A DNA stretch of 64,000 nt, taken from positions 138,995-202,994 of the IMG/VR virus record IMGVR_UViG_3300045988_147927; one strand, given 5' to 3'. Under the pieces are notes generated by a model that saw only the letters and a list, made by a program, of their open reading frames with translations, ran no database searches and had not been told where the DNA came from. Positions 3,561-20,487 of the stretch are shown here, piece after piece; the stretch's first letter is position 1, and each line of letters opens with the position of its first letter. The translations under genes were made by a program, and so were the position numbers. This stretch comes from a virus.

Positions 3561-3600
3561 ATAAGATAAATATGTCTAAATTATAATATTACACGTAAAG

Positions 3601-3628: not shown

Positions 3629-3665
3629 TTAAGTTGTATAGAGAGGAGGTGTCAGCTTGGAATAA

Positions 3666-6297: not shown

Positions 6298-8022
6298 ATG
6301 GCATGGTATGATTTATTTATTGGTAAGAGGGGGAATATTACCAATAATAGTAGTCAGAGTGATACAATAGAGGATTTAAATACAATAAAAGAGAATACAA
6401 CTGGTGATATCATACGAGAGGTTAAGATTGTTGAGGATGGTAGAGTAGGTTCTTTTTTTGATGGGAACATAGAATCAATACACTCAAAACAAAATATTAA
6501 TGAGGGTAAGGTAAATTTATCACCAAGTAATTTACAACAGTTGATAGGTAATGATGATACAAATGCTTTGGGGCAAGTTATCGATGGTATTCGTGGTGAT
6601 TATAGTTTAAGTGATATATTTTTAGAGAATGAAGAAATGTCTAAGGATTCTGTTATAGGTGCAGCTATGGAGATTCTAGCAGATGATTCTTGTACAGTTG
6701 ATGAAACAACTCATTTTGCTATTATGGTAGATTCTACTGATGAGGGGTTAAAGAAATTTATAGAAGATTTTTTGAGAAATAATATCAATATAGAAGATAG
6801 GCTTTGGTCTTGGGCGTATGAGATTGTTAAGCATGGTGATTTTAAACTTAGGAGAAGAGAGTATTATGCTGGTTCTGAAAAGAGTGGTATAAAGTCTGTT
6901 TATTATGAAGATGTAATAAATCCCTACCTTGTTTCTAGGATTGAGTATATGGGGAACGTATTAGGATATGAGGATGAGGATTATGCCTTTGAGAGTGGTT
7001 CATATCAAGATGCTGGTCAGTTTGGTACTGTTGGTAGTGGTATAAGTGGTAGTGCTAGGTTCGAGAAGAGTGATGAATTTGTTCATTTTATATCATCTAA
7101 ACTATCTAAGAGGGAAAAAATTAAGTTAAATGTTAAGAAGGCTGATAACACACGAGAAGAGGTTACTTGTTATCGTGTAGTAGGTACTTCTATAGTAGAC
7201 AGTGCTAGGACTATGTTTAGGATTAATGCTTTAATTGATAATATTCTTGTTTTATCACGTATTGCAAGGTCTACACAATTTAACCTTGTAAAGGTTGAGG
7301 TTGGTAATGCTGGTGCAGGACAAACACAACAAATGTTATCAGATGTTAGAAGGAGATTTCAAGCTAATACTAAGATGCAAAAAGGTGTAGGGTTTAGGTC
7401 TGACCCATCTCCAATTCCTATAAATAGTAATATTTATCTTCCTACAAGAGATGGTAAGGGTGATGTTACAGTAGAGAGTATTGGTGATGGTGTAGACGTG
7501 CAGTCTATTGTTGATGTTGATTACTTTACTGATAAACTTTTTGCTAGTTTAAAAGTTCCTAAACAGTATTTAGGTTTTGCAGAATCATTAGGTTCTATGG
7601 GTAATAATTCCCTTGTTAAACAGGATTTAAGGTATGCTCGTTCTGTTTCTAGGGTTCAACAAATCTTGATTAATGGTATTACAGATTTAGTTGAGAATTA
7701 CTTAAAATATAGGGGTAGAGGTTCTGATGTTGGTGCTTTTAGTATTAGGATGAGACCATTACCTACAAGTGAGACATCAACAAAAGTTGAAGAGTTTGTT
7801 TCAAATCTACAAATGATTGATTCAAGTAGTGCTTTTTTAGAATCTTATGCTGATTATATTGACAAGGCTAAGTGGTTGAAGTCGATGTTAAATCTTATAA
7901 ATGTAGACCCTAGTGATGTAGCTACAGATAAGTTTAAAGAGATAATCAAGTCTATTGAAGATGGTTCGTATAATGAAGAAGATTTTGCTAGTAGTGAGCC
8001 TGAAGATAGTGAAATGTATTAG
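6298..8022 (+). CDS. Portal protein (T4 gp20-like by size and position)
   Basis: 574-aa ORF immediately after terL with RBS GAAGAGG. Size and position are typical of portals, and the C-terminus is acidic. No motif-level proof. Confidence 0.65.
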   Translation: MAWYDLFIGKRGNITNNSSQSDTIEDLNTIKENTTGDIIREVKIVEDGRVGSFFDGNIESIHSKQNINEGKVNLSPSNLQQLIGNDDTNALGQVIDGIRGDYSLSDIFLENEEMSKDSVIGAAMEILADDSCTVDETTHFAIMVDSTDEGLKKFIEDFLRNNINIEDRLWSWAYEIVKHGDFKLRRREYYAGSEKSGIKSVYYEDVINPYLVSRIEYMGNVLGYEDEDYAFESGSYQDAGQFGTVGSGISGSARFEKSDEFVHFISSKLSKREKIKLNVKKADNTREEVTCYRVVGTSIVDSARTMFRINALIDNILVLSRIARSTQFNLVKVEVGNAGAGQTQQMLSDVRRRFQANTKMQKGVGFRSDPSPIPINSNIYLPTRDGKGDVTVESIGDGVDVQSIVDVDYFTDKLFASLKVPKQYLGFAESLGSMGNNSLVKQDLRYARSVSRVQQILINGITDLVENYLKYRGRGSDVGAFSIRMRPLPTSETSTKVEEFVSNLQMIDSSSAFLESYADYIDKAKWLKSMLNLINVDPSDVATDKFKEIIKSIEDGSYNEEDFASSEPEDSEMY

Positions 8023-8059: not shown

Positions 8060-8305
8060 ATGATTTTTTACTTTATTAGATGGTGGTGCTACATTTTGGC
8101 TAGATATGTTCCTTGTAAGGATTGTTCTGATAGATACATTGGTTGTCATAGTAAATGTGATAAATATGCTTTATTTAAATTAAATGGTGAGGTACAAAAG
8201 ATTCGTAGGATTAATGAAATAGATGTAGATTCCTATTACATTAAGAAGAATTTAAAGTTACGAGATAAGTACAAAGGTGATTATTATGTCAGAGTTATTA
8301 AATAA
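8060..8305 (+). CDS. Small Cys-rich protein
   Basis: VPCKDCSDRYIGCHSKCDKY cysteine cluster. The true start may be TTG 8096. Confidence 0.5.
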   Translation: MIFYFIRWWCYILARYVPCKDCSDRYIGCHSKCDKYALFKLNGEVQKIRRINEIDVDSYYIKKNLKLRDKYKGDYYVRVIK

Positions 8306-8684
8306 TTCATTATTTGATAGGCTAGAGGAGGCTATATTAAATAATGATATAGAGTTGGTAAAAGAGATTGAAAGTCAGATTATTAGTGGTAAAGATTATT
8401 CTTTAGATAAAGATATGATTCTTTCTATTATTAAGAAGGAACCAGGTAGGGTTATTAAAAATATTATTAATTCTGATGACTTTGATGAGATATCTTCTAT
8501 GAAGGCTTGTAGCTCTCTTTTAACGCATAATATCATAGAGGCACAAATAACTGGTAGGTCTATTGAGGATTATCCTGTTAAGGAATTATATGTTATACTT
8601 GGTAAGTTTATTAATGATGGTTTAGATGAGGGTAAGAATGAGTTCAAAAAATTTGTTACTGAGAGATACAAAAAATTCATTTAG
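8286..8684 (+). CDS. hypothetical protein
   Basis: ORF 8277..8684. ATG 8286 is preceded by AAGGTGA. Confidence 0.6.
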   Translation: MSELLNNSLFDRLEEAILNNDIELVKEIESQIISGKDYSLDKDMILSIIKKEPGRVIKNIINSDDFDEISSMKACSSLLTHNIIEAQITGRSIEDYPVKELYVILGKFINDGLDEGKNEFKKFVTERYKKFI

Positions 8685-9474
8685 CCTTGACTTGGGAGAT
8701 GTTCTAGGTGAGCATCTCCCTTTTTCTTTTTTAATAGATACTGACAGAGATGCTAGATACTATGAAGATTTCATGACTAAATATCAAGCAATAGCTTTTG
8801 ATGGTAGATATGATAAGTATCTTAAAGAAGGGTACACATTACAAGAGATTAATGAGGCTACTAAGAAGGAGTTATTACAGGGTGCTGATAGTGCTAGAAA
8901 AAAGAGAGCGAAAAAGTTAATCACTAAATATGTAGGTGTTAATAATGATGGGTGTGTAGAGTTCTTAACGAATAGTCAATACACTCCGAATAAGAAATAT
9001 CAGCAACTTATAAAATTGAATGATGTTAAAGATATAGGTGCTTTAAAAGAGTTTAAAAAGAGTGATATAACTCGATTATTATTAAATGGGGATTTATCTG
9101 TATATTGTAGTTGTGAAGATTTTTTATATAAAGGCTATAAATATATGGCTTGGAATATGGGGTATGGTTTAGATAAGGAGAATAGATTCCCTAAAATCAA
9201 AAACCCTAGATTAGAGGGTACTATATGCAAGCATTTGATAGCTGTATTGACAGTTATTATGTTTAATAATGCTAAAATATCTTCTGATATATTCAAATCT
9301 AGAGTTGTTGGTAAGATGAGGACTAAGGGAAATACAAATCTAAGTAAGTTGAGGGAAAAGGAAGTAATTTCAAAGAGAAGTTATTGGAAAGGTTTGGGTA
9401 AAGGGATTGCTAAGTCTAGGAATAGTAGAGCAAGGTCTAAGATTAGGGCAAATAAGGTTAGTAGGCATAGGTAA
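8626..9474 (+). CDS. SWIM zinc-finger protein with basic C-terminal tail
   Basis: CxC...CxH pattern (VYCSCEDF...GTICKHLIAV). K/R-rich tail. Start uncertain (ATG 8626 or 8638); both overlap the upstream gene. Confidence 0.5.
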   Translation: MRVRMSSKNLLLRDTKNSFSLDLGDVLGEHLPFSFLIDTDRDARYYEDFMTKYQAIAFDGRYDKYLKEGYTLQEINEATKKELLQGADSARKKRAKKLITKYVGVNNDGCVEFLTNSQYTPNKKYQQLIKLNDVKDIGALKEFKKSDITRLLLNGDLSVYCSCEDFLYKGYKYMAWNMGYGLDKENRFPKIKNPRLEGTICKHLIAVLTVIMFNNAKISSDIFKSRVVGKMRTKGNTNLSKLREKEVISKRSYWKGLGKGIAKSRNSRARSKIRANKVSRHR

Positions 9475-9522
9475 TATATATAAATTTATATAAGTTTATT
9501 TTTTGTGTAAGGAGTATGAATT

Positions 9523-11076
9523 TTGTCTAGGTATTTATTAAAATTTAAATTAGACTCTCCATCTGTTAGAAGTATTTTTGGTGATAAACTTAGGGATATT
9601 TATCATTTACCGGATTTAAAAGATACTAATATTAAGAATAAAGAGGCTAAGAATATCTATACCAGTCTTTTTAGAAATTTAGAAATTAGTAAGGCTAATG
9701 ATAAGTCAGTTAGTAATACACAAGAATCTTTACCGTCAGGTTTTGCTGTTGTTGAAGGTGAAGAGATTATGTGTAGTTATGAAGATTCTGATGTACAGAC
9801 ATACAAGTTGTTTGGTATGGATGTTGGTGAGGATTTTTGTTCCTATGTAAAGTCATATAGTGGGAGTTTTCAAGTTTATAACTTATATAACCCTGATTGG
9901 ATTTTAAGTCTGAATATAAAGGTTAGAAGGAGTGATAATACTTTTATTAGTGATAATTTGGTTAGTGAGGTAGCTAATAGTGTTTTCGGTTCTTCTGCTG
10001 GGTATGATATTGCAAGGGCTGTAGCGACTGCTATGAAATGTGGTGGTCTTTATCAGATGCAAAAAGAAATTGATAGTAATGATAGTAGTAGAACAGTTCA
10101 GGAGATTCTAGGGAGTAGTATTTTTAGTGATATTGTTAGAGCCTATACAGAAGATAATTCATCTGAGGATAATAATACTGTTTTACCTGATAGTGTTGTA
10201 TACAATATCGTTAAAAGTAAGGATGAAGTTATTAGAGATGCCAAAGGTGATTTAGGTGGCAATGATGTTCCTCTAATTGTGTTAAAATACTTATTCACTT
10301 ATTGGGGGATTGTTGCTGATAACTATGCTAGAATCAAAGGTGCATTAGGTACTATTGATACATTGTCATATATCATGAGGCTACAGTTAGGGGATAAGAA
10401 ATTCTTTAAAGACTTTAGGGATTGCTATGAGATTTATGAGAATGATGAGTCTAGTCTTGATAATGAAGATTTCTCTAGTGCTAAGTTGTTAGATAAAGTT
10501 ACTTCTCCTGTATCTGTTTCTTTTGGTGGGATTAGTATTAATATTCCTTATTATGATTACCCTATAAATTGCCCTGCTTTTGAAGCTCTTAAAAATATTG
10601 ATATTACTTCTTCTTTTAGGGATGTTATGGAGTCAAATGTGGATATGTATGATACGTTTGACTTAGTTGATACTATTGATATGAGTGATGAAGAAGTACA
10701 GGCTATGGCTAATATAGATGCTTTAAGGTATATGGATAATGGTGAGTCTACTTTTAATATATCATCCTACGATATGTCTAATGAGGAAGAGAGGAGTTTA
10801 TTCTTTGAGTCTGCAATTAAGACATATGATAAGAAGTTAAAAGTATATAAACCTGAGAAAAATAATGCAGTAGTAAATTCATTATTTGATGTTATCGAGA
10901 GAGGAAGTCTTGAATCACTAAAACTAATGCCTGTGTCTGATACTGTTGATGGTAGTGATAATGTTGTTAATTTGACTGGTACAGAGTTGCAATTACAAGC
11001 TGATAAGAAAGTACTTAGGAGAGTATTGATGTTGGTAAGTAAGTTGAGTGCTAAATTATTAAAACAGTTCTTATAG
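9523..11076 (+). CDS. hypothetical protein
   Basis: 517-aa ORF. TTG start 8 nt after AAGGAG. Confidence 0.6.
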   Translation: MSRYLLKFKLDSPSVRSIFGDKLRDIYHLPDLKDTNIKNKEAKNIYTSLFRNLEISKANDKSVSNTQESLPSGFAVVEGEEIMCSYEDSDVQTYKLFGMDVGEDFCSYVKSYSGSFQVYNLYNPDWILSLNIKVRRSDNTFISDNLVSEVANSVFGSSAGYDIARAVATAMKCGGLYQMQKEIDSNDSSRTVQEILGSSIFSDIVRAYTEDNSSEDNNTVLPDSVVYNIVKSKDEVIRDAKGDLGGNDVPLIVLKYLFTYWGIVADNYARIKGALGTIDTLSYIMRLQLGDKKFFKDFRDCYEIYENDESSLDNEDFSSAKLLDKVTSPVSVSFGGISINIPYYDYPINCPAFEALKNIDITSSFRDVMESNVDMYDTFDLVDTIDMSDEEVQAMANIDALRYMDNGESTFNISSYDMSNEEERSLFFESAIKTYDKKLKVYKPEKNNAVVNSLFDVIERGSLESLKLMPVSDTVDGSDNVVNLTGTELQLQADKKVLRRVLMLVSKLSAKLLKQFL

Positions 11077-11091
11077 TGTCGAGAGATTCTA

Positions 11092-12390
11092 ATGGATATA
11101 ATTACTAAAGATAATAGATACTTTATTCAGATAGATGAGTTAGATGGGTTACATAAGAATTTAGGTTTGAGTAATTCATTTATAAGAAGTGTGCAGATAG
11201 CAAATAGGTCTGTCAAGATAAAGAATGGGTTAGATATTGATAAAAATTACCTAGTGATTGATAGAGTTACTGATAATGATGCGACATTTATTAATCTTTT
11301 TGGTATATGTGTTGATACAAAGACATTTAATATAGCTTTTGGTTTAAATGTTGAATCAGATGATTATATTTTAGTTGGAAATGTTGGCAAATTATTATGT
11401 AATGTGCTAGAGATTAAAAGGTTGCCTGATTGGTTTGATGTTAAGTATCTGCTAGGTTTACTTAAATATGATACAGTTAATACTATATACAATTTTGATA
11501 AGATATTAGTTGAGATGTATAAGTGTAATTTTAATTGTGATGTTGATACTAGCAATTCTATTGTATATGAGATTGTTAAGCAAAAAGAGTCAGAAAAAGA
11601 TACGTTTATTAATGACCCTTTAATTCATAAAGTTATGTATAGCAATACTTTGTACTTATATAAATTTATTAATAAGTGTTTAGTTATACATCAGACCTTT
11701 ACAAGACAGGCAATGTTTTTCTTTAACAATTTTATATTAGAGAGTTCATATGATGAGATGTACTCTAATTATCTTATGTTGTTTTCAAGTGGTGAATTTT
11801 CAATCAAGAATTTATATCAATATTCAGATAGTAATGTTGATATGCTGTATTTGTATTATTTGAGTAAAGGTATTCCTTGTGTATACTTAAATGCATTAAT
11901 GTCTTATGCTTTGTTTTTGAGGCAGAGAGTTATAATGTTTAAAAATTTAAAGAGGTCAAATGTATTGTCTAATATGGATAGTATTGTTAGATGTGCTTTG
12001 AAGATACAGTCTAGTTGTTATAGTAGTAATGATAAATCACAGATATTTGTATATAATTGTATTCAGTTGTTGAAATATAAAGATAAGTATGACATATTTG
12101 TTTTTGCCATAGATAGCAATAATACATATTTAGTTGAGTATATATTAAGTGGGTTAGGGATACTTGATATGCTTAGTGATAATAATATAAGTGTTGTTGA
12201 GTTTTGTAAGTATACATTAGATTACGATAAGAATGTGCAGTGTTTAGTTGATGGGATGTCTTTGTATAGAAAACCAATAATAGATGGACAGTCTAATTTT
12301 GTTCATGTTGGTGTGTCAAGGATATACAATGTGTGTAAGACATTTAATACGTTTAGTAAGTCATTATTGAATTTATTTAATAGAGATTGA
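11092..12390 (+). CDS. hypothetical protein
   Basis: 432-aa ORF, tightly spaced. N/Y/L/C-rich with no recognised motif. Confidence 0.6.
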   Translation: MDIITKDNRYFIQIDELDGLHKNLGLSNSFIRSVQIANRSVKIKNGLDIDKNYLVIDRVTDNDATFINLFGICVDTKTFNIAFGLNVESDDYILVGNVGKLLCNVLEIKRLPDWFDVKYLLGLLKYDTVNTIYNFDKILVEMYKCNFNCDVDTSNSIVYEIVKQKESEKDTFINDPLIHKVMYSNTLYLYKFINKCLVIHQTFTRQAMFFFNNFILESSYDEMYSNYLMLFSSGEFSIKNLYQYSDSNVDMLYLYYLSKGIPCVYLNALMSYALFLRQRVIMFKNLKRSNVLSNMDSIVRCALKIQSSCYSSNDKSQIFVYNCIQLLKYKDKYDIFVFAIDSNNTYLVEYILSGLGILDMLSDNNISVVEFCKYTLDYDKNVQCLVDGMSLYRKPIIDGQSNFVHVGVSRIYNVCKTFNTFSKSLLNLFNRD

Positions 12391-13004
12391 GGGGGTTGCA
12401 GTTGAGGGGTTACTTATTTTATAAGGATAAGACTTTGATAGAATTACGAAAGTTTCTAACAAGTGGTGATTCTATTTTTGGCAAGTTTAGACCACAGGCT
12501 ATGGATTTCATCAAGTATGCTAAGAATGAGTTAGATACTGAGCTTGATACAATGGCAAATAATGGTGGGTTTGAGTTGGATAGTATTGTACTTGAAAAAG
12601 TCTTTCCTACAAAATATAAATGGTTTGTTAGAGATGTCAAGTTAAAGGCTCTTAGGTCTTATTTAAAAGAAGTTGAGTCAAGGATACAAGAGTTTCAAGG
12701 TGGTAAAGAGGATAATTTAAGGTTATTGATAGGGGTACACTTTTTAAGGTTTGTTTTATTGACAAAATTAGTTACATTATATGTATCTACATATAGTGAG
12801 ATGAAAAGAGTGGGTTTGAATGTTGATAATCTAACAATAAGTGAGATTGGTATAGGTCAATCAATTTTAAAATACATTCTATCTTTTGAAGAGTTTGACA
12901 ATAAGACTATAGATGATTGGTTGAATTTGGTAGTAGATAGTAATTTGATGAAATATTATTTCTCTACAATGAAGAGAATAATGTCTATTTTAGATTTTAA
13001 GTAA
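12387..13004 (+). CDS. hypothetical protein
   Basis: 205-aa ORF. TTG start overlaps the upstream TGA. Confidence 0.55.
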   Translation: MRGLQLRGYLFYKDKTLIELRKFLTSGDSIFGKFRPQAMDFIKYAKNELDTELDTMANNGGFELDSIVLEKVFPTKYKWFVRDVKLKALRSYLKEVESRIQEFQGGKEDNLRLLIGVHFLRFVLLTKLVTLYVSTYSEMKRVGLNVDNLTISEIGIGQSILKYILSFEEFDNKTIDDWLNLVVDSNLMKYYFSTMKRIMSILDFK

Positions 13005-13018
13005 TATAGGGGATATAG

Positions 13019-16000
13019 ATGTATAGTATTAATAACTTTTTCCCTTTTATTGATAGGGCTGATTTTGTAAGGAATATTAGGGAAGTTCATAATATTTCTG
13101 AATTTTTTGGGTTTGAAGTTACAAAGACTGATTTTGATGTGGATACTAAGGGTGATAGTCATGTCTTAAAGGCATATAGGGTATTACCTAGTAACACACT
13201 ATTTTTAATGGAAGTTCCTAGTGTTGTAAAAGATGTATTTAATGGTATTTATGGGCAGGAAGTTACTGTAGATATTATTGAATTAGATTATCAAGGAATT
13301 TCTAATTTAATTAATTGTGAAGAAGTGAATGACAGTCTATGTGCTACTTTATATTGTAATGGTGGTTTTGATTCAGAGAATATTATTACAGATACTTTTA
13401 TAAATGCTTGCGGTAATGGTATCGAAGTTCCTTATGATGTAGCAAAAGATTTCCTTATTCTAGAAGATTCTGATAGAAAGTCTAGGGATGTAAATATAAA
13501 TGATTGGTTGTATGATAATGAGCATATTGATGAAAGTTATATTATGGAGTCAGCTGCTGATACATTACAACTGTTAAAAGATAGACGTAAGAATGGTAAA
13601 GATAACTATGCTGAGGAAGTTAAAGGTAAGGATGCAATTTACACTTGGTTAGATGCTTATTTCTCTTTACCTGAAGGTGAGGAAATTAAAAGTGGTGGTA
13701 GGGAAGTTGTTCCACTTTTAATAGGGCCAACCGCCGTTTTCAAATCTGCTACAATTAAAGAATTGTGTAAAAAGTATAATTACAGAATGGTTGACTTTAG
13801 GGTTGCATTTACTTCTAGGTTGGATTATAGTGGTCTATTTCAAATTGGTGAGGTAGAGGGTAAGAAGTATAGCTATGCTTGTCCTATGGAAGAATTGGTT
13901 GTATGTTCTGATGGTTTCCGTGAGTTTTGTAAGCAGTCTTATCAAAAATTAGAAGATATTTTACAAAAGGGGTATATTGAAAAAGATGTAGCCTCTGATG
14001 GTAATGTAGTTGAGAAAGAGCAACAAACCATATCAGATGAGCAGAGAGAGAAGATTGTAAAATTACAATTACAATATAAGGAGTACATGAAAACACCAGT
14101 ACTATTCTTTGATGAAATTACACGTTGCTCTAATAAAGGTGTTAATGGTATTCTTGTACAATTATTGAATCAAAAAAGATTAAATGATATGACATTTAAT
14201 GGGTGTAAATTTGTTGCCGCTACAAACTTAGATATTCAAAAGGGTTTAGAACGTGAAGAGTATAAGATGGAGTTAGAGACATTATATGATGTTAATACTG
14301 ACCTTGATGTTGCGTACTCCAATAGGTTCATTCCTTTGAAGGTATATCCTGAAGATGTTCAAGATAGATGGTTTGAGTGGGCAAAATCTTTAACATCTAA
14401 GAAAGGATTTACAGATACACCTAATATACACCCAGTAGTATTAGAGTTCTTAGAGAAGAATAGGGATTATGTATATAATGATAAACCTGTAATAGATGCT
14501 ATTGCTAATGGATTATCAGATAATGAACAAAGAACAGCAGTTTTCCCTAATTATCGTACATGGGATATGTTGTCTGAGTACTTGTATTCTATTGATGAGA
14601 GTGCTAGTATTGACAATGATGATAAAGATGGTGCAGAAGAGAAGTTATATAAGCGTAGATTAGTTGAGGGTTATATATCTAAGTGGTGTTGTGATAAGTT
14701 TTTACCTTTCTTAGAATCAAAAGGATATAAAGAATATGATTCTGTTAAAGAACCAGTAGAAGATACTGTAAGTGATTTTCTAGATACTGCTTTAGAGAAT
14801 AATTCTCCTGCCATGTTAATCGGGCCGTCATCATTAGGTAAGACCAGCAGGGTTAAAGCATATATGAAAAAAGTTAAGTTACGTACTGGTTTAGAGCCAG
14901 TTTTAATTAATGTAAACTTAGCTAGTAAAGATGCTGTTGACCTTATGGGTATGCCTGTTAAACAATCATTAACTGAATATGTTGGTGGTGGTATATTAAA
15001 GGGTTCAGGTTTAGAAGAGGTTTCTAAAGAATTACAGAATATTGTAAAAAGTGTTTCTAGTGATATCAAATATGGTATGACAGATTTATTGACTTTGAGG
15101 GCGCCAGACAAGACTGTTAAGGATAGGTTTATCACTGCACTTAAAGAGGGTAGAGAAGTTATTTTATTCTTTGATGAAGTTAATAGGGTTCAATCAAGTA
15201 CTGTCACTTCTGCCGTTTTTGAGGCTGTTTCAGATAGTAGGTTTGGTGGTGTAGATTTTTCTGAGTATAAAGACAGAGTAAAAATCATCGCAGCTTGTAA
15301 TATGGCTTGGGAAGGTATGGAAGAAGATGGTGGTGGTTATGGTGATACTGGTACACTAGACCCTGCATTTGCCGCTAGGTTCTCTATTTATTGGAAAAAA
15401 GAATATGATGAGCAGGATGTTAAGTCTTGGATTAGTTTTATGGAGTCTGAGAGAGAAGATGGTACTATTGATGGTACATTACTAGATTTCTTTAAAGATT
15501 TAGATACTAAACAGGCTTTAAAAATTATGGCTAGTGTAGAAAAACGTACATTAGAAGATGCACAACCTTCTACTCGTAATATGTTACAGCTGTCAAAAGA
15601 TATAAAATCTATGCGTGGTAGGAATACATCTAAAGGTTTTATGCCGAAGGCTTTCAATGGTAAAATATTGTTTACTGACGATGTTCAAGCACAATATGAA
15701 AACTTGGTATTTGATAGGCAGTCTAATTCATTAGAAGTTCAAGTTCAAAAAACTATTAAGTTTATAGATTCATTGTTGTATGGTAAAGACTTATGGGAGT
15801 CTTTATTAATAAATGATTCTGTAAAAGTAGGTGGTACTTCAATTTCTGCAAGTGATATTGTAGATAGTTTGGAGGCTTGTTCTTTAGATTTAAAACAGTA
15901 CAACTTAAAGGCTATGTCATCTGATGATAGAGATGAGTGTAGTAATACTCTTGATTTGGTTCAGGATTTAGCAGATTTTATTAGGAGTTTAGATATCAAG

Positions 16001-16534
16001 ACTTCTAATAAACGTGAAGATATTTTCAAAATGTATCTAGGTGAGAGTATTCTTGGTGAGTTTACAAAATACTTTAACAATACTTTTGGTACAGGATTAG
16101 ACGAAGATATTACTATAGAACAGTTAAAAGATGATACTTTGATTATTCCTTATATGAAGTTAGTACAAAGGAATTTCTCTAAGTTTAGTGGTAATACTGA
16201 AAAGATTGTTAATTACTGTTTAGGTTTGTGTAAAGACTTTATGGGTGTTCATGGGACATCATTACCTAATAAACATTATGCTATGTTTTTGAGTGGTATT
16301 AAGGATATATTACCTAATGCTGATAATATGGTTCTTTTCTTGCGATTGTCTGGTGAAGATATTGAAAAGATGTATGAAATGGCAGAGGCTGTGGGTGATG
16401 ATTGGATTATAGATATCACAAGTGATTATGGTACTCGTGTTACTAAAGAATATATTGATAATATTCGAAAACTAATTAGTGATAGCAAAAAAACAAAGAA
16501 AAGTATTAGTAAATCTAAGTTTACAGTTTTATAG
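13019..16534 (+). CDS. Tandem AAA+ ATPase (two MoxR/AAA_5-like modules)
   Basis: Module 1: Walker A LLIGPTAVFKSAT, Walker B VLFFDEITRC, then FVAATN. Module 2: Walker A MLIGPSSLGKTSR, Walker B ILFFDEVNRV, then KIIAACN. Both have the D..DL.G-type motif after Walker A (SRLDYSGL, KDAVDLMG). Confidence 0.75.
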   Translation: MYSINNFFPFIDRADFVRNIREVHNISEFFGFEVTKTDFDVDTKGDSHVLKAYRVLPSNTLFLMEVPSVVKDVFNGIYGQEVTVDIIELDYQGISNLINCEEVNDSLCATLYCNGGFDSENIITDTFINACGNGIEVPYDVAKDFLILEDSDRKSRDVNINDWLYDNEHIDESYIMESAADTLQLLKDRRKNGKDNYAEEVKGKDAIYTWLDAYFSLPEGEEIKSGGREVVPLLIGPTAVFKSATIKELCKKYNYRMVDFRVAFTSRLDYSGLFQIGEVEGKKYSYACPMEELVVCSDGFREFCKQSYQKLEDILQKGYIEKDVASDGNVVEKEQQTISDEQREKIVKLQLQYKEYMKTPVLFFDEITRCSNKGVNGILVQLLNQKRLNDMTFNGCKFVAATNLDIQKGLEREEYKMELETLYDVNTDLDVAYSNRFIPLKVYPEDVQDRWFEWAKSLTSKKGFTDTPNIHPVVLEFLEKNRDYVYNDKPVIDAIANGLSDNEQRTAVFPNYRTWDMLSEYLYSIDESASIDNDDKDGAEEKLYKRRLVEGYISKWCCDKFLPFLESKGYKEYDSVKEPVEDTVSDFLDTALENNSPAMLIGPSSLGKTSRVKAYMKKVKLRTGLEPVLINVNLASKDAVDLMGMPVKQSLTEYVGGGILKGSGLEEVSKELQNIVKSVSSDIKYGMTDLLTLRAPDKTVKDRFITALKEGREVILFFDEVNRVQSSTVTSAVFEAVSDSRFGGVDFSEYKDRVKIIAACNMAWEGMEEDGGGYGDTGTLDPAFAARFSIYWKKEYDEQDVKSWISFMESEREDGTIDGTLLDFFKDLDTKQALKIMASVEKRTLEDAQPSTRNMLQLSKDIKSMRGRNTSKGFMPKAFNGKILFTDDVQAQYENLVFDRQSNSLEVQVQKTIKFIDSLLYGKDLWESLLINDSVKVGGTSISASDIVDSLEACSLDLKQYNLKAMSSDDRDECSNTLDLVQDLADFIRSLDIKTSNKREDIFKMYLGESILGEFTKYFNNTFGTGLDEDITIEQLKDDTLIIPYMKLVQRNFSKFSGNTEKIVNYCLGLCKDFMGVHGTSLPNKHYAMFLSGIKDILPNADNMVLFLRLSGEDIEKMYEMAEAVGDDWIIDITSDYGTRVTKEYIDNIRKLISDSKKTKKSISKSKFTVL

Positions 16535-16625
16535 TTTAGTATTTTAAGTAGAGGTGGTAGTAGCAGATATGTAGTAGTATAAATGTTACTACTATCTCTA
16601 TTATTTTATGAGAGGTAAAATTCTT

Positions 16626-17015
16626 ATGTTGGATGTTTCTTATATTGATAATTTTGTAAGTAGATTACCTATAGATAGTATGGATTTTGGGGATAATGTT
16701 ATTTCTAATGGTGATATTGTTGAGTGTTATGCTCCAGAATACAGTTTTTCTATTATTAATAATGCTATAAGGAGTTATAACCCTTATAGTTCTAAGATTG
16801 TTGATAATGGCACTACATATGTTGAGGTTAAAGATACTATTTATGTTGATGGGTTAAAGACAGATGTAAGGTATCTATTTTTACAAGGTGACTTTGGTAA
16901 GGGTACTAGGGTTAAAATGATTACTGATAGTGTATATGCCTATGTTAATCACGAGGTTAAGCAATTTAGTGGGTTCAATACATATAGTGCTTATATTGAT
17001 AAATTCGTAGTGTAG
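16626..17015 (+). CDS. hypothetical protein
   Basis: ORF 16608..17015. ATG 16626 lies 10 nt after GAGAGG. Confidence 0.55.
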   Translation: MLDVSYIDNFVSRLPIDSMDFGDNVISNGDIVECYAPEYSFSIINNAIRSYNPYSSKIVDNGTTYVEVKDTIYVDGLKTDVRYLFLQGDFGKGTRVKMITDSVYAYVNHEVKQFSGFNTYSAYIDKFVV

Positions 17016-17025
17016 AGGTGACAAT

Positions 17026-18861
17026 ATGGGTTTATCAAATAAGATTAGAGATAGAAAGAAAAGAGTTATTAATTTTATTAATTCTTTGTCTGATAGGTAT
17101 GTAGAATCTTTGGGTGGATATACGCCTTCTATTAATGAGGGTAGCGATAATAAGATTGTCGATTTAGATGCTGTTCAGAGCATTATTGATGAAAATAGTT
17201 TTGAAAAGATAACTTTTGGTAAGGATATGGTGAATCCTTATGATAGTAAGGCAGAAGTTAGGATTTTCTTTATGACAAATAAGAATAAAACTATTGATGA
17301 TACGATGCCTAATACTTATAGGATAGCAATAGAAGAGGTACATGATAGGTATAGTGATGAGATAAGTTATGAGGTTAAATATGGTTTTATTGGAAGGACT
17401 AAAGTAACAGATTTTAATGAATCACCTTTAAAATATAATACAAAAGATGCAACAATGACTTTTGATATTTTGGCAAGTAAGTGTGATAGTGATGTTATAT
17501 ATGATTCCTTAGTAGGTGTTGTAAAAGAAAACTTGCATAATTTTGATATTATGGCATATAGTATGTTTACAAGTAATGACTTAAAACATCTGAGAAGTAG
17601 AGCAGTTTCTACTTTGGCTGTTGGTCTACATAAAAGGACAGGTAAATTCATTTATTATTTTAACCCTGATTTTATTTTGAGGGAGGCATTAGAGGAATAC
17701 TGTAATAATGGTGATATGTATAGGTCATTAAAGGATTGTTATGTTTATCTTTTAACTTTCTTTATTGCACATGAGATGGCACATCTAGTTACTAATAATA
17801 GTACACATAGTATTAAGAATAGCTTTGTTGATTTAGATGACACATATGCTAGTGGTGGTGTTGATAATGTTGTAATGGATGGGTTTATTAATGCTAAGTT
17901 AAAGATAGTGTTATCAAGATTGCCTAACATTTCAAATAAGGCTAAAGGTATTGGTGGTGTTTTTCCTAGTAATTGCATTACAGATATTATTCATTTGAGG
18001 GCACAGCATAATGTGGGGCTAAAAAGTTTTAAATCATTCGATGAGATGACAGAAGTTGTTATAGCATCTATAGATAATGTATCTAAATTGTTTGGTGAAG
18101 AGACAGAAGTAAAATTTTATAATGAGACTAGGAAAGATAGTATTAGTCCTTATGTTGGTGCTGATATATTTTGCAATATTTACATAAATGGTTCTTTTAA
18201 GAAGTTGAGGAGTAGTTCTCATATCTTTCAAAAAGTAATAAATGATATTATTAGGTCAATCACCGATGGGAAAATCTATTGGTCTAAAAATGGTGGTATT
18301 ACTGATGAAGAAAAAGTTTCTGATAAAGAGATTTTAAAAGATGGTACTTTAGTTAAGGTTAAAGGAACATCTGTTGTTGGTATTGTTAAATCTCATAGAG
18401 AGATACCTAAAGGAAAGTATATTGTACAAGAAGTGTATAGTGTAAATTACACTAAAATAGATAAAGTAGATGATACTGATTTGGGAGATGGTAAGATTCT
18501 ACATACACCAATATATGTTGATAGTGGTAATTTTTATGCTGAGTTAGATAGGAAATATATATTACCTATAGAATCTTCTTATGGTTCTTGGATAGAAGAT
18601 ACGAATAAGAGTGATAAAACAGAGTTATCTGAGGAAGATTTAGCTGATAATGATGGTAGTGGTATGGGTGAGATGGATGGTTCCAGTAGTGATAGTGGTT
18701 CTAGTGGAAATTCACCTAAATCAATTAGTGTTGGTGATATTGTGTGGGTTGCTAAGAAAAAAAGGTTCGGAATTGTAACATCTATTGTTAATGGTGTGTT
18801 CCATGTAGAGGATGTTAGGGAAGAGCCTTGTGTTGTTTTAGATGATTCTGATAATCATTAA
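17026..18861 (+). CDS. HExxH metallopeptidase-like protein (DUF2201_N-like) with C-terminal small beta-barrel repeats
   Basis: FFIAHEMAHLV zinc-binding motif in a helical context. Two SH3/KOW-like segments (GTLVKVKGTSVVGIVKS; GDIVWVAKKKRFGIVTS) separated by an acidic, G/S-rich linker. Confidence 0.5.
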   Translation: MGLSNKIRDRKKRVINFINSLSDRYVESLGGYTPSINEGSDNKIVDLDAVQSIIDENSFEKITFGKDMVNPYDSKAEVRIFFMTNKNKTIDDTMPNTYRIAIEEVHDRYSDEISYEVKYGFIGRTKVTDFNESPLKYNTKDATMTFDILASKCDSDVIYDSLVGVVKENLHNFDIMAYSMFTSNDLKHLRSRAVSTLAVGLHKRTGKFIYYFNPDFILREALEEYCNNGDMYRSLKDCYVYLLTFFIAHEMAHLVTNNSTHSIKNSFVDLDDTYASGGVDNVVMDGFINAKLKIVLSRLPNISNKAKGIGGVFPSNCITDIIHLRAQHNVGLKSFKSFDEMTEVVIASIDNVSKLFGEETEVKFYNETRKDSISPYVGADIFCNIYINGSFKKLRSSSHIFQKVINDIIRSITDGKIYWSKNGGITDEEKVSDKEILKDGTLVKVKGTSVVGIVKSHREIPKGKYIVQEVYSVNYTKIDKVDDTDLGDGKILHTPIYVDSGNFYAELDRKYILPIESSYGSWIEDTNKSDKTELSEEDLADNDGSGMGEMDGSSSDSGSSGNSPKSISVGDIVWVAKKKRFGIVTSIVNGVFHVEDVREEPCVVLDDSDNH

Positions 18862-18873
18862 GGTAGGTGTAAT

Positions 18874-20487
18874 ATGGCTAAAAAACAATTAAAAAAGAGA
18901 ATATTTGTACCTACAGGTAATGATTTAGGTAATTTTAATGTTTTTGATTTGCAGCCTGTAGAGTTGACATTTGTAGATTCAGATGAAGGAAATAAAGAGA
19001 GCAATTCTAAAGGTGCTGGTGGTGGTTCTTCTGTACCTGACCCTGTAGATAATAATCCGTTAAGTAAAAGTTCTAGTAAAGACTCTAGTGGTGATGGCTC
19101 AAAAGATAATAATCCATATAGTAATGGATATGATGAAGATAATAACGGTGATGAGTTTGATAAATCTGAGAGAGATTTAAACAATGATTTATATGGCGAT
19201 GATTTAGACAAGGATGAGGCTGAAAAATCTCAGCAAAATAATCAAGATGGTGATGGAGAGGGTTCATCTGGTGGTGAGAGTGGCTCTTCCAGTGCAGGTG
19301 GTATGGGTAGTAATGGTGAGAATGACTTCTCACCACCTAATTATGACAGTAGCATGGCAAATGGTGAGGGTGATGATTCATCAGAAAATAAGTCAGAGAT
19401 GGAAAGTGCCTTAGATAATGAGGAAGAGAATAAGTCAGATATATCAAAAGAGAGGTCTAATGAGGTAGATAATCAAAACTCTCAAAACTCTCAAAACTCT
19501 CAAAACTCTCAAAACTCTCAAAACTCTCAAAACTCACAGAATGGGGATAATTCTCAAAATGGAGATAACTCACAAAATGGTGAAAACTCTCAAAATGGAG
19601 ATAGCTCACAAAATGGTGATAGTTCTCAAAATAAGCTAACTGATAGTGATGAATTTCAGAAGGCACATGAGACTAAGAACAATGATTTTGATGATACTAA
19701 AGGTAAAGAGATTGCTGATAAGATGGTAAGAGATGCCGCTAAAAAAGTTCAAGAGGAATTAGATAAGGATGAGACATTAGCAAATACTAATAGTGATTCT
19801 TTAGATAATTATAAAGACTTCGGTGCTGGTGCTATGACTACTCTATTTAAGAGTACAGGTATGGTAGCTGATTGGAAAGTCAAATTAAATAAATTATTTA
19901 GGATGGCTTTAGGTCAGAGGGTGTTTATGAATCCTGATATGATTAATAAGCGTATTGAAGATGCACCTCCAGGGAGAGAAGATATTGAGTCAACAATGAT
20001 TAAAGTTGGTATATTACTAGACTGTTCATCATCTATGGGTGGTTCTGCTTTCAAAAAGGTTATCACGCAGATGGATGCTATGATACGTGCTGATAAGGGT
20101 ATGAAAAAAGTACAGTTTTATATTATGCCATTTTCAGAATGGTCTGTAGAAGAGAGCATTAAACTTATGAAGAGGTGTAAAGGTACACAATTAAAGCAGA
20201 CTTTATTGACTTTTGGGCCAAAAGGTTCTACTTATATAACAAATGCTGTTGAGGCATTGATGAGGAAGATTAAGAATCCTGATACTGTTATTGTTATGTC
20301 AGACTGTGAAATATGGGATGATGATGCTTTTGCTAGAAATTCATATTGTAAAAAGTTGGTTACTAAATTCAGAAAACGCTTAATATGGGTTATGCCTAGT
20401 AAGAGTGGCCTAGGTTATATGGCTAAATTCGATAAATTCGCTAAAAAAGAAGATAGGTATTTAGTCTTTAAAGGTGACGGGGATTAA
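18874..20487 (+). CDS. vWA (MIDAS) domain protein with long acidic/N-Q-S low-complexity N-terminal region
   Basis: DxSxS MIDAS motif in VGILLDCSSSMGG, with a downstream vWA-like beta-alpha pattern ending VIVMSDCEIWDD. The N-terminal 250 aa are D/E/S/G/N/Q-rich. Confidence 0.65.
   Translation: MAKKQLKKRIFVPTGNDLGNFNVFDLQPVELTFVDSDEGNKESNSKGAGGGSSVPDPVDNNPLSKSSSKDSSGDGSKDNNPYSNGYDEDNNGDEFDKSERDLNNDLYGDDLDKDEAEKSQQNNQDGDGEGSSGGESGSSSAGGMGSNGENDFSPPNYDSSMANGEGDDSSENKSEMESALDNEEENKSDISKERSNEVDNQNSQNSQNSQNSQNSQNSQNSQNGDNSQNGDNSQNGENSQNGDSSQNGDSSQNKLTDSDEFQKAHETKNNDFDDTKGKEIADKMVRDAAKKVQEELDKDETLANTNSDSLDNYKDFGAGAMTTLFKSTGMVADWKVKLNKLFRMALGQRVFMNPDMINKRIEDAPPGREDIESTMIKVGILLDCSSSMGGSAFKKVITQMDAMIRADKGMKKVQFYIMPFSEWSVEESIKLMKRCKGTQLKQTLLTFGPKGSTYITNAVEALMRKIKNPDTVIVMSDCEIWDDDAFARNSYCKKLVTKFRKRLIWVMPSKSGLGYMAKFDKFAKKEDRYLVFKGDGD
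19474..19632 (+). repeat. In-frame tandem repeats: 7 x 9 bp (caaaactct) then about 5 x 18 bp
   Basis: Read directly. 19474-19536 has seven 9-mers encoding (QNS)n. 19537-19626 has 18-bp units caaaatggNgaNaNctca encoding QNG(D/E)(N/S)S. Confidence 0.9.

What the first reader, a model, noticed from the sequence alone, without database searches (positions are those of the whole stretch)
8626..20487. SWIM / tandem MoxR-like AAA+ / HExxH / vWA-MIDAS gene set inserted between portal and prohead protease
Seen: in an otherwise T4-like head module (terL, portal ... gp21-like protease, gp23-like capsid), about 12 kb of co-directional, tightly coupled genes lie between portal and protease.
- A SWIM zinc-finger protein (8626-9474).
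- Three large unknowns of 517, 432 and 205 aa.
- An 1171-aa protein with two complete AAA_5/MoxR-type modules (GPTAVFKS/FFDEITR and GPSSLGKTS/FFDEVNR).
- A 135-aa ORF.
- A 611-aa HExxH protein (AHEMAH) with two SH3/KOW-like barrels.
- A 537-aa protein whose C-terminus is a vWA domain with a DxSxS MIDAS motif, after a 250-aa acidic/NQS repeat region.
A further vWA (DUF2828-like) gene ends at 334.
Known: MoxR-type AAA+ ATPases work with vWA-MIDAS partners. DUF2201-type proteins combine a metallopeptidase-like domain with vWA. SWIM + AAA_5 + vWA gene clusters exist in bacteria and have been proposed as NTP-dependent conflict or chaperone systems.
Inference: this is a phage-borne, split and expanded version of such a system, placed where T4 keeps its prohead core genes. 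It might be a capsid-internal or ejected machine, a maturation chaperone, or a counter-defence device. I do not know of a characterised phage system with this composition.
Basis: partly seen in the sequence, partly recalled or inferred. Interest (0 to 1): 0.75.

Follow-up and report, generated by a model that had tools for sequence, protein, structure and literature searches.

The report
Conserved AAA+/vWA/zincin phage head-module block
A nine-gene block (a double AAA+ motor, a metal-binding vWA adaptor, an HExxH protein, a SWIM zinc-finger protein and five unknowns) sits between the portal and the prohead protease in a whole group of uncultivated ~200-kb T4-like phages, which points to an unstudied ATP-driven step in building or loading the phage head.

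Summary
The block really starts one gene earlier, at 8277.

It is not a recent insertion. The same nine genes lie in the same order between a T4-type portal and a gp21-type (Peptidase_S77) protease in every relative found, down to 36% AAA identity.

In more distant lineages the HExxH and vWA genes are one fused protein with weak DUF2201_N/DUF2201 matches, and it still lies directly upstream of the protease. This confirms the "split" reading. A shorter AAA–x–HExxH–vWA unit occurs away from head genes in cultured Rhizobium phages.

The nearest cultured portal relatives lack the block. There are no defence-library hits.

Inteins sit in the AAA P-loop, near the AAA D1 Walker B motif, and in the SWIM CxC motif. 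This marks these as highly conserved sites.

Portal, SWIM, AAA, HExxH and capsid proteins each carry a conserved [I/L/V]-x-E motif where a variable N-terminus meets the conserved body. This is a lead that the prohead protease trims them.

Best reading: a MoxR/midasin-like chaperone–protease module working on or inside the prohead. A MoxR + peptidase-vWA pair in jumbo phages was already predicted in 2021 (PMC7824862), so this is a new variant, uncharacterised experimentally.

The parts
6298..8022 (+). Portal protein (upstream anchor of the block; context)
   Evidence: phrog_213 at 1.7e-28. Orthologs carry Pfam Portal_T4. A conserved [I/V/L]-x-E motif at residue 69 separates the variable N-terminus from the conserved body in 10 of 10 lineages.
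8277..8684 (+). p135a: acidic 135-aa protein, first conserved gene of the block
   Evidence: Ortholog present directly after the portal in 10 related lineages in which the portal-proximal part of the block is visible. No family hit.
8694..8720 (+). Terminator-like hairpin plus U-tract, 10 nt after the p135a stop, inside the 5' end of the SWIM gene
   Evidence: Folds at -19.8 kcal/mol, z = -5.2. Kept in L001, L014 and L035 with compensating changes.
8626..9474 (+). SWIM zinc-finger protein with a basic C-terminal tail (probable start 8638)
   Evidence: Pfam SWIM. phrog_4315 at 1e-14. phrog_1722, the P1 gp25 group, at 4e-12. C161, C163, C201 and H203 are invariant. An intein sits between the two Cys in L039.
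9523..11076 (+). p517: acidic, fast-evolving unknown protein
   Evidence: Syntenic orthologs at 21-28% identity. No family or PDB-level hit. Conserved C-terminal ...K-x-F tail.
11092..12390 (+). p432: fast-evolving unknown protein
   Evidence: Syntenic orthologs. Profile match in L050 (99.8%) and L043 (73.6%). C-terminal ...K-K-F tail.
12387..13004 (+). p205: conserved helical protein with a central hydrophobic segment
   Evidence: 33-56% identity in the clade. 96% profile match in L043. Kyte-Doolittle 19-mer score of 1.9-2.4 at residues ~102-132 in all 10 lineages.
13019..16534 (+). Tandem AAA+ ATPase (two AAA_5/MoxR-type modules, an N-terminal domain and a ~360-aa C-terminal domain)
   Evidence: Pfam AAA_5, AAA and AAA_7. 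phrog_1297 at 4e-33. Catalytic motifs conserved. Inteins at GK|T of module 2 and near the Walker B motif of module 1 in relatives. Homolog is Rhizobium phage gp273.
16608..17015 (+). p135b: small beta-rich protein always found between the AAA and HExxH genes
   Evidence: Profile matches of 96-98% in L047 and L048. AF2 model has pLDDT 48.6. Only weak fold similarity to BamC-N, DcrB and EagT6.
17026..18861 (+). HExxH (zincin-like) protein with C-terminal SH3/KOW-like barrels
   Evidence: H249, E250 and H253 are invariant, including in Rhizobium phage gp275. Fused to vWA in distant homologs, with weak DUF2201_N hits.
18874..20487 (+). Acidic low-complexity region followed by a vWA domain with an intact MIDAS motif
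   Evidence: Pfam VWA and VWA_2. DxSxS...T...D conserved. N-terminal half has 21-28% D+E in all orthologs. Profile match to Rhizobium phage gp276 (91.7%).
22040..23866 (+). Prohead protease fused to a coiled-coil scaffold (downstream anchor; context)
   Evidence: phrog_207 at 1e-37. Orthologs carry Pfam Peptidase_S77.

Best explanation
The block is a dedicated head-morphogenesis module.

Proposed mechanism.
- The 1171-aa protein carries two AAA_5 modules. Three copies would give a six-module ring, as in MoxR hexamers or the concatenated ring of midasin. It acts as an ATP-driven protein remodeller.
- Its partner is a DUF2201-type protein that in this clade is split in two. One part is an HExxH zincin-like protein with SH3-like barrels. 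The other is a protein with a long acidic disordered region and a MIDAS-bearing vWA domain.
- The MIDAS site holds an acidic residue of a client, the motor pulls, and the HExxH domain may cut.
- The small p135b protein, the possibly membrane-anchoring p205, the SWIM zinc-finger protein, and p135a, p517 and p432 are accessory factors or clients.
- The module is made together with portal, protease-scaffold and capsid protein. It acts on or inside the prohead, either assembling or clearing its core or loading and processing internal proteins.

What is shown: the composition, the intact motifs, the split-versus-fused relationship, and the fixed position upstream of the gp21-type protease in many lineages.

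What is inferred: ring formation, the client, peptidase activity, the membrane anchor, and trimming by the prohead protease.
For: 1. Strict synteny. Portal - p135a - SWIM - p517 - p432 - p205 - AAA - p135b - HExxH - vWA - protease - capsid is kept in all relatives, down to 44% portal and 36% AAA identity. The same order is seen in L050 and L059.
2. In more distant lineages (L043, L045, L047, L056), AAA - small protein - HExxH/vWA still lies directly before Peptidase_S77 and Gp23. Tail genes follow in L043 and L045.
3. The catalytic motifs of both AAA modules, the MIDAS motif and HExxH are conserved.
4. Inteins sit in the module-2 P-loop (GK|T), near the module-1 Walker B motif and in the SWIM CxC motif. 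From general knowledge, inteins persist at highly conserved sites of important genes.
5. There is no PADLOC hit.
6. A conserved terminator-like hairpin after p135a would lower expression of the genes downstream. That fits catalytic rather than bulk structural amounts.
7. Precedents exist. MoxR/vWA pairs are chaperones (midasin, RavA-ViaA, ATV tail assembly; PMC7159879). Iyer et al. proposed virion assembly plus proteolytic processing for a MoxR + peptidase-vWA pair of T4-like jumbo phages (PMC7824862).
8. Conserved [I/L/V]-x-E motifs lie at the boundary between the variable N-terminus and the conserved body in portal, SWIM, HExxH, AAA and capsid proteins. The exact string INE[GA] occurs only three times in the 66 ORFs of at least 80 aa on the + strand (0.53 expected), and all three are at these sites. 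gp21-family proteases cleave after Glu at such short motifs (PMC5694885).
Against: - No experiment exists for any member, and no cultured phage carries the head-linked form.
- The nearest cultured portal relatives lack the block, so T4-like heads can be built without it. SP-15 and GXN1 were checked by gene map. A tblastn search with the AAA protein found nothing in any cultured phage except Rhizobium phages.
- In Rhizobium phages, L051 and L057, the AAA-x-HExxH-vWA unit is not next to head genes.
- The HExxH protein has no detectable third zinc ligand and no Pfam or PDB match of its own. Peptidase activity is therefore unproven.
- The AAA protein is remote from solved MoxR proteins. The best PDB match is CbbQ at E = 0.05.
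- Gene position is circumstantial evidence.
- The cleavage-motif pattern was found post hoc and rests on a three-residue motif.
Confidence: 0.5

Rival explanations
1. Packaged and ejected cargo. Some or all block proteins are built into the prohead core and trimmed once at an N-terminal [I/L/V]-x-E site, as T4 internal proteins and Alt are. They stay in the mature head and enter the next cell with the DNA. There, with ATP available, the AAA+/MIDAS/zincin machine remodels or cuts host proteins or helps genome entry.
For: - Single conserved Glu-motif sites lie near the N-termini of SWIM (E77), HExxH (E38) and AAA (E177 or E65), beside those of portal and capsid protein.
- The position is that of the T4 prohead core genes 67 and 68.
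- p517 and p432 evolve fast, at 21-28% identity, as arms-race cargo might.
- The P1 SWIM-like protein gp25 gives a weak virion signal (PMC9024508).
- A MoxR-like ATPase co-purified with a Staphylococcus jumbo phage (PMC10638138).
Against: - No proteomics exists for this clade.
- The motif evidence is post hoc.
- An ~800-kDa AAA ring would be an unusual capsid passenger.
- The terminator-like hairpin suggests low expression.
- The Rhizobium-type unit is not in a head gene cluster.
- The authors flagged the DC4 MoxR signal as possible carry-over.
Confidence: 0.22
2. Cytoplasmic counter-defence or host-takeover system that merely rides in the late operon. It would be an NTP-dependent MoxR-vWA device related to the bacterial conflict systems or to yehLMPQ.
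For: - Bacterial MoxR-vWA ternary systems are proposed conflict systems (PMC7159879).
- E. coli yehLMPQ shares AAA_5, VWA and SWIM.
- The unit occurs outside head clusters in Rhizobium phages.
- The block is absent from the nearest cultured relatives (gene maps of SP-15 and GXN1).
Against: - No PADLOC hit.
- No VMAP, effector or DUF5682 partner was detected.
- Order and place next to the prohead protease are fixed over deep divergence. This is unlike mobile anti-defence islands.
- The conflict-system paper does not mention SWIM.
Confidence: 0.12
3. Neck or tail assembly and stability factor, by analogy with the ATV MoxR/vWA pair and with the P1 gp25 'tail stability' protein.
For: - The SWIM protein matches phrog_1722 'tail protein' and P1 gp25.
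- In Streptococcus phage GXN1 the SWIM homolog lies between the neck and sheath genes.
- ATV precedent, as cited.
Against: - In this genome no neck or tail gene was recognised among the ten large downstream ORFs that were scanned.
- In all lineages the block is tied to portal and protease, not to sheath or tube.
- The SWIM similarity covers about 80 to 170 residues around the zinc finger.
- The Maribacter phage SWIM homolog lies among replication genes.
Confidence: 0.08

Closest known systems
MoxR AAA+ / metallopeptidase-vWA pair of 'group 2.2' (T4-like) jumbo phages (Iyer et al. 2021, PMC7824862)
   Same: A phage-encoded MoxR-type ATPase next to a vWA protein that carries an N-terminal metallopeptidase domain. 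It was proposed to act in virion assembly with proteolytic processing. Distant homologs of the window's HExxH protein have exactly this fused architecture.
   Different: - Here the ATPase is a 1171-aa tandem of two modules with extra N- and C-terminal domains.
- The peptidase and vWA parts are separate genes.
- Five or six further conserved genes, including SWIM, belong to the block.
- The block is fixed between portal and prohead protease.
- I could not retrieve the published example proteins, so direct homology to them was not tested.
Bacterial DUF2201_N + DUF2201 (HExxH + VWA-like) proteins paired with MoxR ATPases
   Same: Domain logic of HExxH followed by vWA. Weak Pfam DUF2201_N and DUF2201 hits in the fused phage homologs P0180, P0183, P0177 and P0188.
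   Different: The window proteins themselves give no DUF2201_N or DUF2201 hit. The hits in homologs are below the Pfam cut-offs. The phage family is small, with 67 clusters at 50% identity. The bacterial family is itself uncharacterised.
Rhizobium phage RHph_TM30 gp273-gp276 (Kleczkowskaviridae) and similar units in L051 and L057
   Same: A homologous tandem AAA protein (25% identity over 600 aa, E 2e-36; profile match 99.9%), then a small protein, an HExxH protein (92.8%) and an acidic-plus-MIDAS vWA protein (91.7%).
   Different: No SWIM, p517, p432 or p205 homologs. The unit is not next to portal or protease and lies among tRNA and miscellaneous genes. All four genes are annotated only as ATPase or hypothetical.
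Acidianus two-tailed virus MoxR/vWA pair (named p618/p892 from my own memory)
   Same: A virus-encoded MoxR ATPase plus a vWA co-chaperone, reported as required for tail assembly (as cited in PMC7159879 and PMC7824862).
   Different: It is an archaeal virus, with no peptidase domain and a single-module ATPase. It acts in tail development, not at the prohead. Sequence relationship was not tested here.
Midasin/Rea1
   Same: Concatenated AAA_5 modules, a D/E-rich region and a C-terminal MIDAS domain that grips a client while the ring remodels a large assembly (general knowledge; listed in PMC7159879). The phage set has AAA_5 modules and an acidic region followed by MIDAS.
   Different: Midasin is one polypeptide with six modules. 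The phage has two modules, with MIDAS on a separate protein. No UBL-like client was identified. The low-confidence p135b model is not ubiquitin-like. This is an analogy, not membership.
E. coli yehLMPQ
   Same: Clustered AAA_5 (YehL), VWA_CoxE (YehP) and SWIM (YehQ) genes. The phage vWA profile weakly matches YehP (59.6%).
   Different: The DUF5682 partner (YehM) was not detected in the phage. Yeh has no HExxH protein. YehQ is 614 aa against 282 aa here. Function is unknown in both.
T4 prohead core genes 67 and 68
   Same: Same genomic slot between gene 20 (portal) and gene 21 (protease).
   Different: No sequence or profile similarity. The T4 proteins are small scaffold-core proteins without enzymatic domains.

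Membership tests
MoxR-type (AAA_5) AAA+ ATPase | Match to Pfam AAA_5 above the curated cut-off | tested here: met
   32.2 bits against a cut-off of 22 for residues 233-389. Module 2 hits AAA (32.1 bits against 21.2) and AAA_7 (26.8 bits against 25.8). The module-2 region of the Rhizobium homolog hits AAA_3.
MoxR-type (AAA_5) AAA+ ATPase | Walker A Lys, Walker B hhhhDE(I/V)xR, sensor-1 Asn and Arg conserved | tested here: met
   Both modules in 8 lineages, including the Rhizobium phage. The module-1 P-loop is deviant (GPTxVFKS) but keeps the Lys.
MoxR-type (AAA_5) AAA+ ATPase | Genomic coupling to a vWA-MIDAS partner | tested here: met
   A vWA gene lies two or three genes downstream, or is fused to the HExxH gene, in every locus in which the downstream genes are visible.
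MoxR-type (AAA_5) AAA+ ATPase | Close similarity to characterised MoxR proteins; ring formation and ATPase activity | tested here: inconclusive
   The best solved relative is CbbQ at E = 0.05. Oligomer state and activity are not testable with these tools.
vWA domain with MIDAS | Pfam VWA match and the DxSxS...T...D motif | tested here: met
   VWA scores 24.5 bits against a cut-off of 23.8. The motif is conserved in the six clade orthologs, Rhizobium phage gp276 and E. coli YehP, with Ser for Thr at the T position in some.
DUF2201-type protein (DUF2201_N metallopeptidase + VWA-like DUF2201) | HExxH motif in the N-terminal domain | tested here: met
   H249, E250 and H253 are invariant in 11 and in 8 sequences.
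DUF2201-type protein (DUF2201_N metallopeptidase + VWA-like DUF2201) | Match to Pfam DUF2201_N / DUF2201 | tested here: inconclusive
   The window proteins give none. Fused homologs give sub-threshold hits: DUF2201_N at 22.0 bits against 23.2, and DUF2201 at 22.4 bits against 26.4.
DUF2201-type protein (DUF2201_N metallopeptidase + VWA-like DUF2201) | Both domains on one polypeptide | tested here: not met
   They are split into two genes in the window, its clade and the Rhizobium phages. They are fused in L043, L045, L046, L047 and L057.
SWIM zinc finger | CxCxnCxH signature and Pfam match | tested here: met
   21.1 bits against a cut-off of 19.6. C161, C163, C201 and H203 are invariant.
yehLMPQ-type cluster | AAA_5 + DUF5682 + VWA_CoxE + SWIM | tested here: not met
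   DUF5682 is absent: no Pfam hit, and profile probability against YehM is below 20%. VWA_CoxE is only at E 0.021.
vWA-MoxR-VMAP ternary conflict systems (Kaur et al. 2020) | VMAP component and effector modules | tested here: not met
   No Pfam or PADLOC hit of that kind in any block protein. This is limited to what those libraries hold.
T4 prohead core proteins (gp67, gp68, gp22, internal proteins) | Sequence or profile similarity | tested here: not met
   hhalign probability is at most 15% for every block family against gp67, gp68, gp22, Inh and gp21.
T4 prohead core proteins (gp67, gp68, gp22, internal proteins) | Presence in the prohead and cleavage by the gp21-type protease | not testable with these tools
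   There is only a motif lead: conserved [I/L/V]-x-E at N-terminal boundaries.

The most novel reading that the evidence does not exclude
An ATP-driven AAA+/MIDAS/zincin machine is built into the prohead core of these phages. It would be targeted by N-terminal propeptides that the gp21-type protease removes at I-N-E|G/A-like sites. It would then either power a maturation step unknown in model phages, such as core extraction or cargo loading, or be ejected with the DNA as a ready-made remodelling motor that acts in the newly infected cell.
Probability: 0.3. Interest if true: 0.85.

Novelty: new variant of a known kind. Interest (0 to 1): 0.6.

Why it matters
Head assembly in tailed phages is thought to need no dedicated ATPase before DNA packaging. 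Here a large AAA+/MIDAS/zincin module is held for a long evolutionary time between portal and prohead protease. It occurs in phages that are assembled again and again as ~200-kb genomes from public metagenomes. This suggests an extra energy-dependent step in capsid morphogenesis, or a new class of capsid cargo.

It also gives the uncharacterised DUF2201/MoxR pairing a concrete biological setting. The candidate clients (portal, scaffold-protease, capsid) are known, and the predictions can be tested by mass spectrometry. The homologous unit in cultured Rhizobium phages offers an experimental entry point.

Tried and rejected
- DNA search of the block against GenBank phages: no match.
- tblastn with the vWA domain and with two fused homologs: no match.
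- Pfam, NCBIfam, PHROGs and PADLOC on p135a, p517, p432, p205 and p135b: nothing usable.
- Sequence and profile searches of the PDB with the AAA, HExxH and SWIM proteins: nothing significant.
- AF2 model of the HExxH protein: pLDDT 59. Foldseek against the PDB gave only partial KOW/SH3-like hits. The model had vanished from the server before the viral library could be searched.
- AF2 model of p135b from a 9-sequence alignment: pLDDT 48.6. I had hoped for a ubiquitin-like fold as a MIDAS client. The weak hits were to BamC-N, DcrB and EagT6 instead, and I treat them as inconclusive.
- Profile comparison of p517, p432, p205 and SWIM with YehM, YehQ and YehI, and of all families with T4 gp67, gp68, gp22, Inh and gp21: negative.
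- All-against-all comparison within the block: no paralogy. The only signal was a short C-terminal tail similarity between p517 and p432.
- p135a/SWIM overlap as a programmed frameshift: rejected. An ordinary start (ATG 8638 after GAGGG) explains it.
- Maribacter and P1 SWIM contexts: no AAA or vWA neighbours.
- Attempt to locate the published example pair in phage Atu_ph07: wrong genome, so abandoned.
- The AAA homolog search was swamped by near-identical sequences.

Full report
**1. What is in the sequence**

The window has about 30% G+C, a strong positive GC skew, and essentially all genes on the + strand.

Gaps between them run from -59 to +73 nt.

Pfam gives these hits:
- SWIM for 8626-9474: 21.1 bits against a cut-off of 19.6.
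- AAA_5 for residues 233-389 of the 1171-aa protein: 32.2 bits against 22.
- AAA and AAA_7 for residues 585-762 of the same protein.
- VWA for residues 380-468 of the 537-aa protein: 24.5 bits against 23.8.

PHROGs adds phrog_1297 'ATPase' at 4e-33. For the SWIM protein it adds phrog_4315 and phrog_1722, the group of P1 gp25.

The flanks are as described:
- Portal (phrog_213).
- Protease fused to a coiled-coil scaffold (phrog_207).
- N-terminal part of a gp23-type capsid protein (phrog_138).

The proteins of 517, 432, 205 and 135 aa, and the 611-aa HExxH protein, have no hit in Pfam, NCBIfam, PHROGs or PADLOC.

**2. Not an insertion but a clade-wide core block**

Relatives were fetched from IMG/VR, Logan, ENA and GTDB. 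In all of them the same nine genes lie in the same order between a Portal_T4 gene and the protease: p135a (8277-8684), SWIM, p517, p432, p205, AAA, p135b, HExxH and vWA.
- This holds down to 44% portal identity and 36% AAA identity.
- It also holds in a contig binned with a Limnochordia genome (L050) and in L059.
- SWIM, p205 and AAA are well conserved. p517 and p432 diverge fast, at 21-28% identity.

The two TnpB genes are peculiar to this genome. One lies in terL and one between vWA and protease. Relatives have an intact terL, and in most of them the protease directly follows vWA.

Near-identical copies of the AAA protein occur on dozens of contigs of about 195-205 kb. The phage is therefore common in public data.

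No cultured phage matches at the DNA level. The closest cultured portals are Bacillus SP-15, Listeria LIS04, B. cereus HSE3 and Streptococcus GXN1, at 28-31% identity.
- SP-15 and GXN1 have no such block between portal and capsid genes.
- A tblastn search with the AAA protein finds nothing in any of them.

**3. The split reading is right**

A profile of the HExxH protein was searched against 1.84 billion representative proteins. It found only 67 clusters. The distant ones are longer proteins of about 700-1280 aa.
- Several carry VWA, VWA_2 or DUF2201 at the C-terminus.
- P0180 and P0183 also carry an MSSS-type SH3 domain in the middle and a weak DUF2201_N hit exactly at the HExxH.
- Profile comparison matches both the HExxH family (99.2-99.7%) and the vWA family (99.7-99.9%) to these single proteins.

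Their genomic contexts are striking:
- L043 (198-kb contig): 204 / 417 / p432-like / p205-like / AAA with an intein / 130 aa / fused protein / Peptidase_S77 / Gp23 / gp13 / sheath / gp19.
- L045 and L047 show the same right-hand part.
- L056 has AAA / 164 aa / HExxH / vWA / protease / capsid.

So the unit 'AAA - small protein - HExxH(-)vWA' directly precedes the gp21-type protease in at least eleven lineages.

A second arrangement also exists: AAA - protein of about 230-350 aa - HExxH - vWA, or a fusion of the last two. It is not next to head genes. It occurs in cultured Rhizobium phages (gp273-gp276 of RHph_TM30), in L051 and in L057.

**4. Motifs**

Both AAA modules keep the Walker A Lys, Walker B DE(I/V)xR, sensor-1 Asn and an Arg, including in the Rhizobium homolog. 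Module 1 has a deviant P-loop.

Inteins interrupt the gene in relatives at two places:
- Exactly between K608 and T609 of the module-2 P-loop.
- Near the module-1 Walker B motif.

Another intein sits between the two Cys of the SWIM CxC motif in L039.

The vWA domain keeps DxSxS...T...D. It is always preceded by 250-500 residues of acidic, S/G/N/Q-rich sequence. HExxH is invariant, but I found no conserved third metal ligand.

p205 has a hydrophobic 19-mer (Kyte-Doolittle 1.9-2.4) at the same place in all ten lineages. It is the only candidate membrane segment in the block.

p135a, p517 and p432 end in similar ...[K/R]-x-[K/Q]-F-[L/I/V] tails. Four of the five window ORFs that fit a loose C-terminal pattern belong to the block. 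That pattern was defined after seeing the data.

**5. A lead on prohead residence**

The capsid protein has a conserved I-x-E|G-T site at residue 65. This is the expected maturation cut, since T4 removes 65 residues (PMC9958956).

The exact string INE[GA] occurs only three times in the 66 ORFs of at least 80 aa on the + strand, against 0.53 expected. The three sites are portal residues 67-70, SWIM residues 75-78 and HExxH residues 36-39. Each lies where a variable N-terminus meets the conserved body.

The column [I/L/V]-x-E is kept as follows:
- Portal: 10 of 10 sequences.
- SWIM: 10 of 10.
- Capsid protein: 5 of 6, with K-Y-E in the sixth.
- HExxH: at least 12 of 17.
- AAA E177: 9 of 11, counting M-F-E in one.
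- AAA E65: 4 of 11 with I/L/V, and 8 of 11 if F and M are allowed at the first position.

gp21-family proteases cut after Glu at such short motifs. The SPN3US portal is processed in this way (PMC5694885).

This was noticed post hoc and rests on three residues. I treat it as a testable lead, not a finding.

**6. Function**

The composition is that of a MoxR-vWA chaperone pair with an added zincin domain. The tandem AAA_5 modules plus 'acidic region then MIDAS' recall midasin, but only as an analogy.

Three observations argue for a head-linked role and against a mobile counter-defence island:
- The fixed position in the portal - protease - capsid operon.
- The inteins at conserved sites.
- The lack of any defence-library hit.

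A conserved terminator-like hairpin lies right after p135a. It folds at -19.8 kcal/mol (z = -5.2) and is kept in four lineages. It would reduce expression of the downstream genes, as expected for enzymes rather than bulk structural proteins.

Two observations point the other way:
- The nearest cultured relatives build T4-like heads without the block.
- The Rhizobium-type unit sits elsewhere in its genome.

I cannot separate 'transient assembly/maturation machine' from 'packaged and ejected machine'. I give 0.5 to the former and 0.22 to the latter.

**7. Comparison with what is known**

- Iyer et al. (PMC7824862) already reported a MoxR ATPase next to a vWA protein with an N-terminal metallopeptidase domain in T4-like jumbo phages. 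They proposed virion assembly with proteolytic processing, citing the MoxR/vWA pair of Acidianus two-tailed virus.
- Bacillus phage 0305phi8-36 was annotated with a two-subunit MoxR chaperone (PMC2147016).
- A MoxR-like ATPase co-purified with a Staphylococcus jumbo phage, but the authors flagged it as unconfirmed (PMC10638138).
- P1 gp25, which shares the SWIM region, gives a weak virion signal. Its role is unresolved (PMC9024508).
- E. coli yehLMPQ shares AAA_5, VWA_CoxE and SWIM. Its DUF5682 partner was not detected here.
- The MoxR-vWA conflict-system paper does not mention SWIM.

What is new here:
- The tandem 1171-aa motor.
- The split peptidase and vWA genes.
- The extra conserved partners: SWIM, p205, p135a, p135b, p517 and p432.
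- The fixed slot upstream of the prohead protease across many uncultivated lineages.
- The possible protease trimming.

**8. Verdict**

The feature is real and correctly described. It is a new variant of a predicted but uncharacterised kind of system. Interest is 0.6.

Noticed in passing
window 3066-5068: terL is interrupted at residue ~590 by a ~2-kb element. The element carries a TnpB gene (3741-4883) followed by a RAGATH-18 RNA (4927-5000; 55.7 bits against a cut-off of 44.9). Relatives have an intact ~989-aa TerL. This looks like an IStron-type or IS605-family insertion in an essential gene. No group I intron model reached the Rfam threshold.
   Followed up: partly
window 20817-21914: A second TnpB (phrog_506 at 5e-134) lies between the vWA gene and the protease gene. 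It is absent at this place from all relatives examined. No Rfam RNA hit lies next to it.
   Followed up: partly
window 23933-28156: The capsid gene is in four pieces: 23933-24730, 25931-26035, 27243-27605 and 27998-28156. The three intervening stretches hold a homing-endonuclease-like ORF (24962-25750) and an Endonuclease I-like ORF (26616-27179). The Bacillus phage SP-15 capsid gene is interrupted in a similar way.
   Followed up: partly
window 8694-8720: A conserved hairpin plus U-tract lies 10 nt after the p135a stop and inside the SWIM coding region. It folds at -19.8 kcal/mol (z = -5.2). It is kept with compensating changes in L001, L014 and L035. It may be an attenuator between the portal/p135a genes and the rest of the block.
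   Followed up: partly
L012, L015, L017, L018, L022 (AAA gene); L039 3863-5008 (SWIM gene); L031 (portal): Inteins occur in relatives at the AAA module-2 P-loop (K608|T609), near the AAA module-1 Walker B motif, and inside the SWIM CxC motif. A faint intein signal is also seen in a portal gene. The window copy has none. It is therefore not the IMG/VR contig 3300008138_000009 but a near-identical genome.
   Followed up: yes
window 45481-47310: An ORF has YadA-like stalk and membrane-anchor domains, as in trimeric autotransporter adhesins. This hints at a host with an outer membrane, despite the Firmicute hosts of the nearest cultured portal relatives.
   Followed up: no
window 52400-54664 and 41-334: One ORF is a Pnkp-like kinase/phosphatase fused to a T4-type RNA ligase. 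The other is the C-terminal fragment of a DUF7788/phrog_850 (Ro-like 'RNA-binding') protein at the window edge. Together they look like an RNA-repair gene set.
   Followed up: no
window 8277-12390 (C-termini of p135a, p517, p432) and 16534 (AAA C-terminus): There are similar extreme C-terminal tails: ...[K/R]-x-[K/Q]-F-[L/I/V] in p135a, p517 and p432, and [K/R]-x-[K/R]-hydrophobic-[L/I] in the AAA protein. They are partly conserved across lineages and could be a shared docking peptide. The pattern was defined post hoc.
   Followed up: partly
window 28373-32487: A QueC/PP-loop-like ORF is followed by two large DUF7487 proteins directly downstream of the capsid gene. In other lineages this position holds neck and tail genes.
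   Followed up: no
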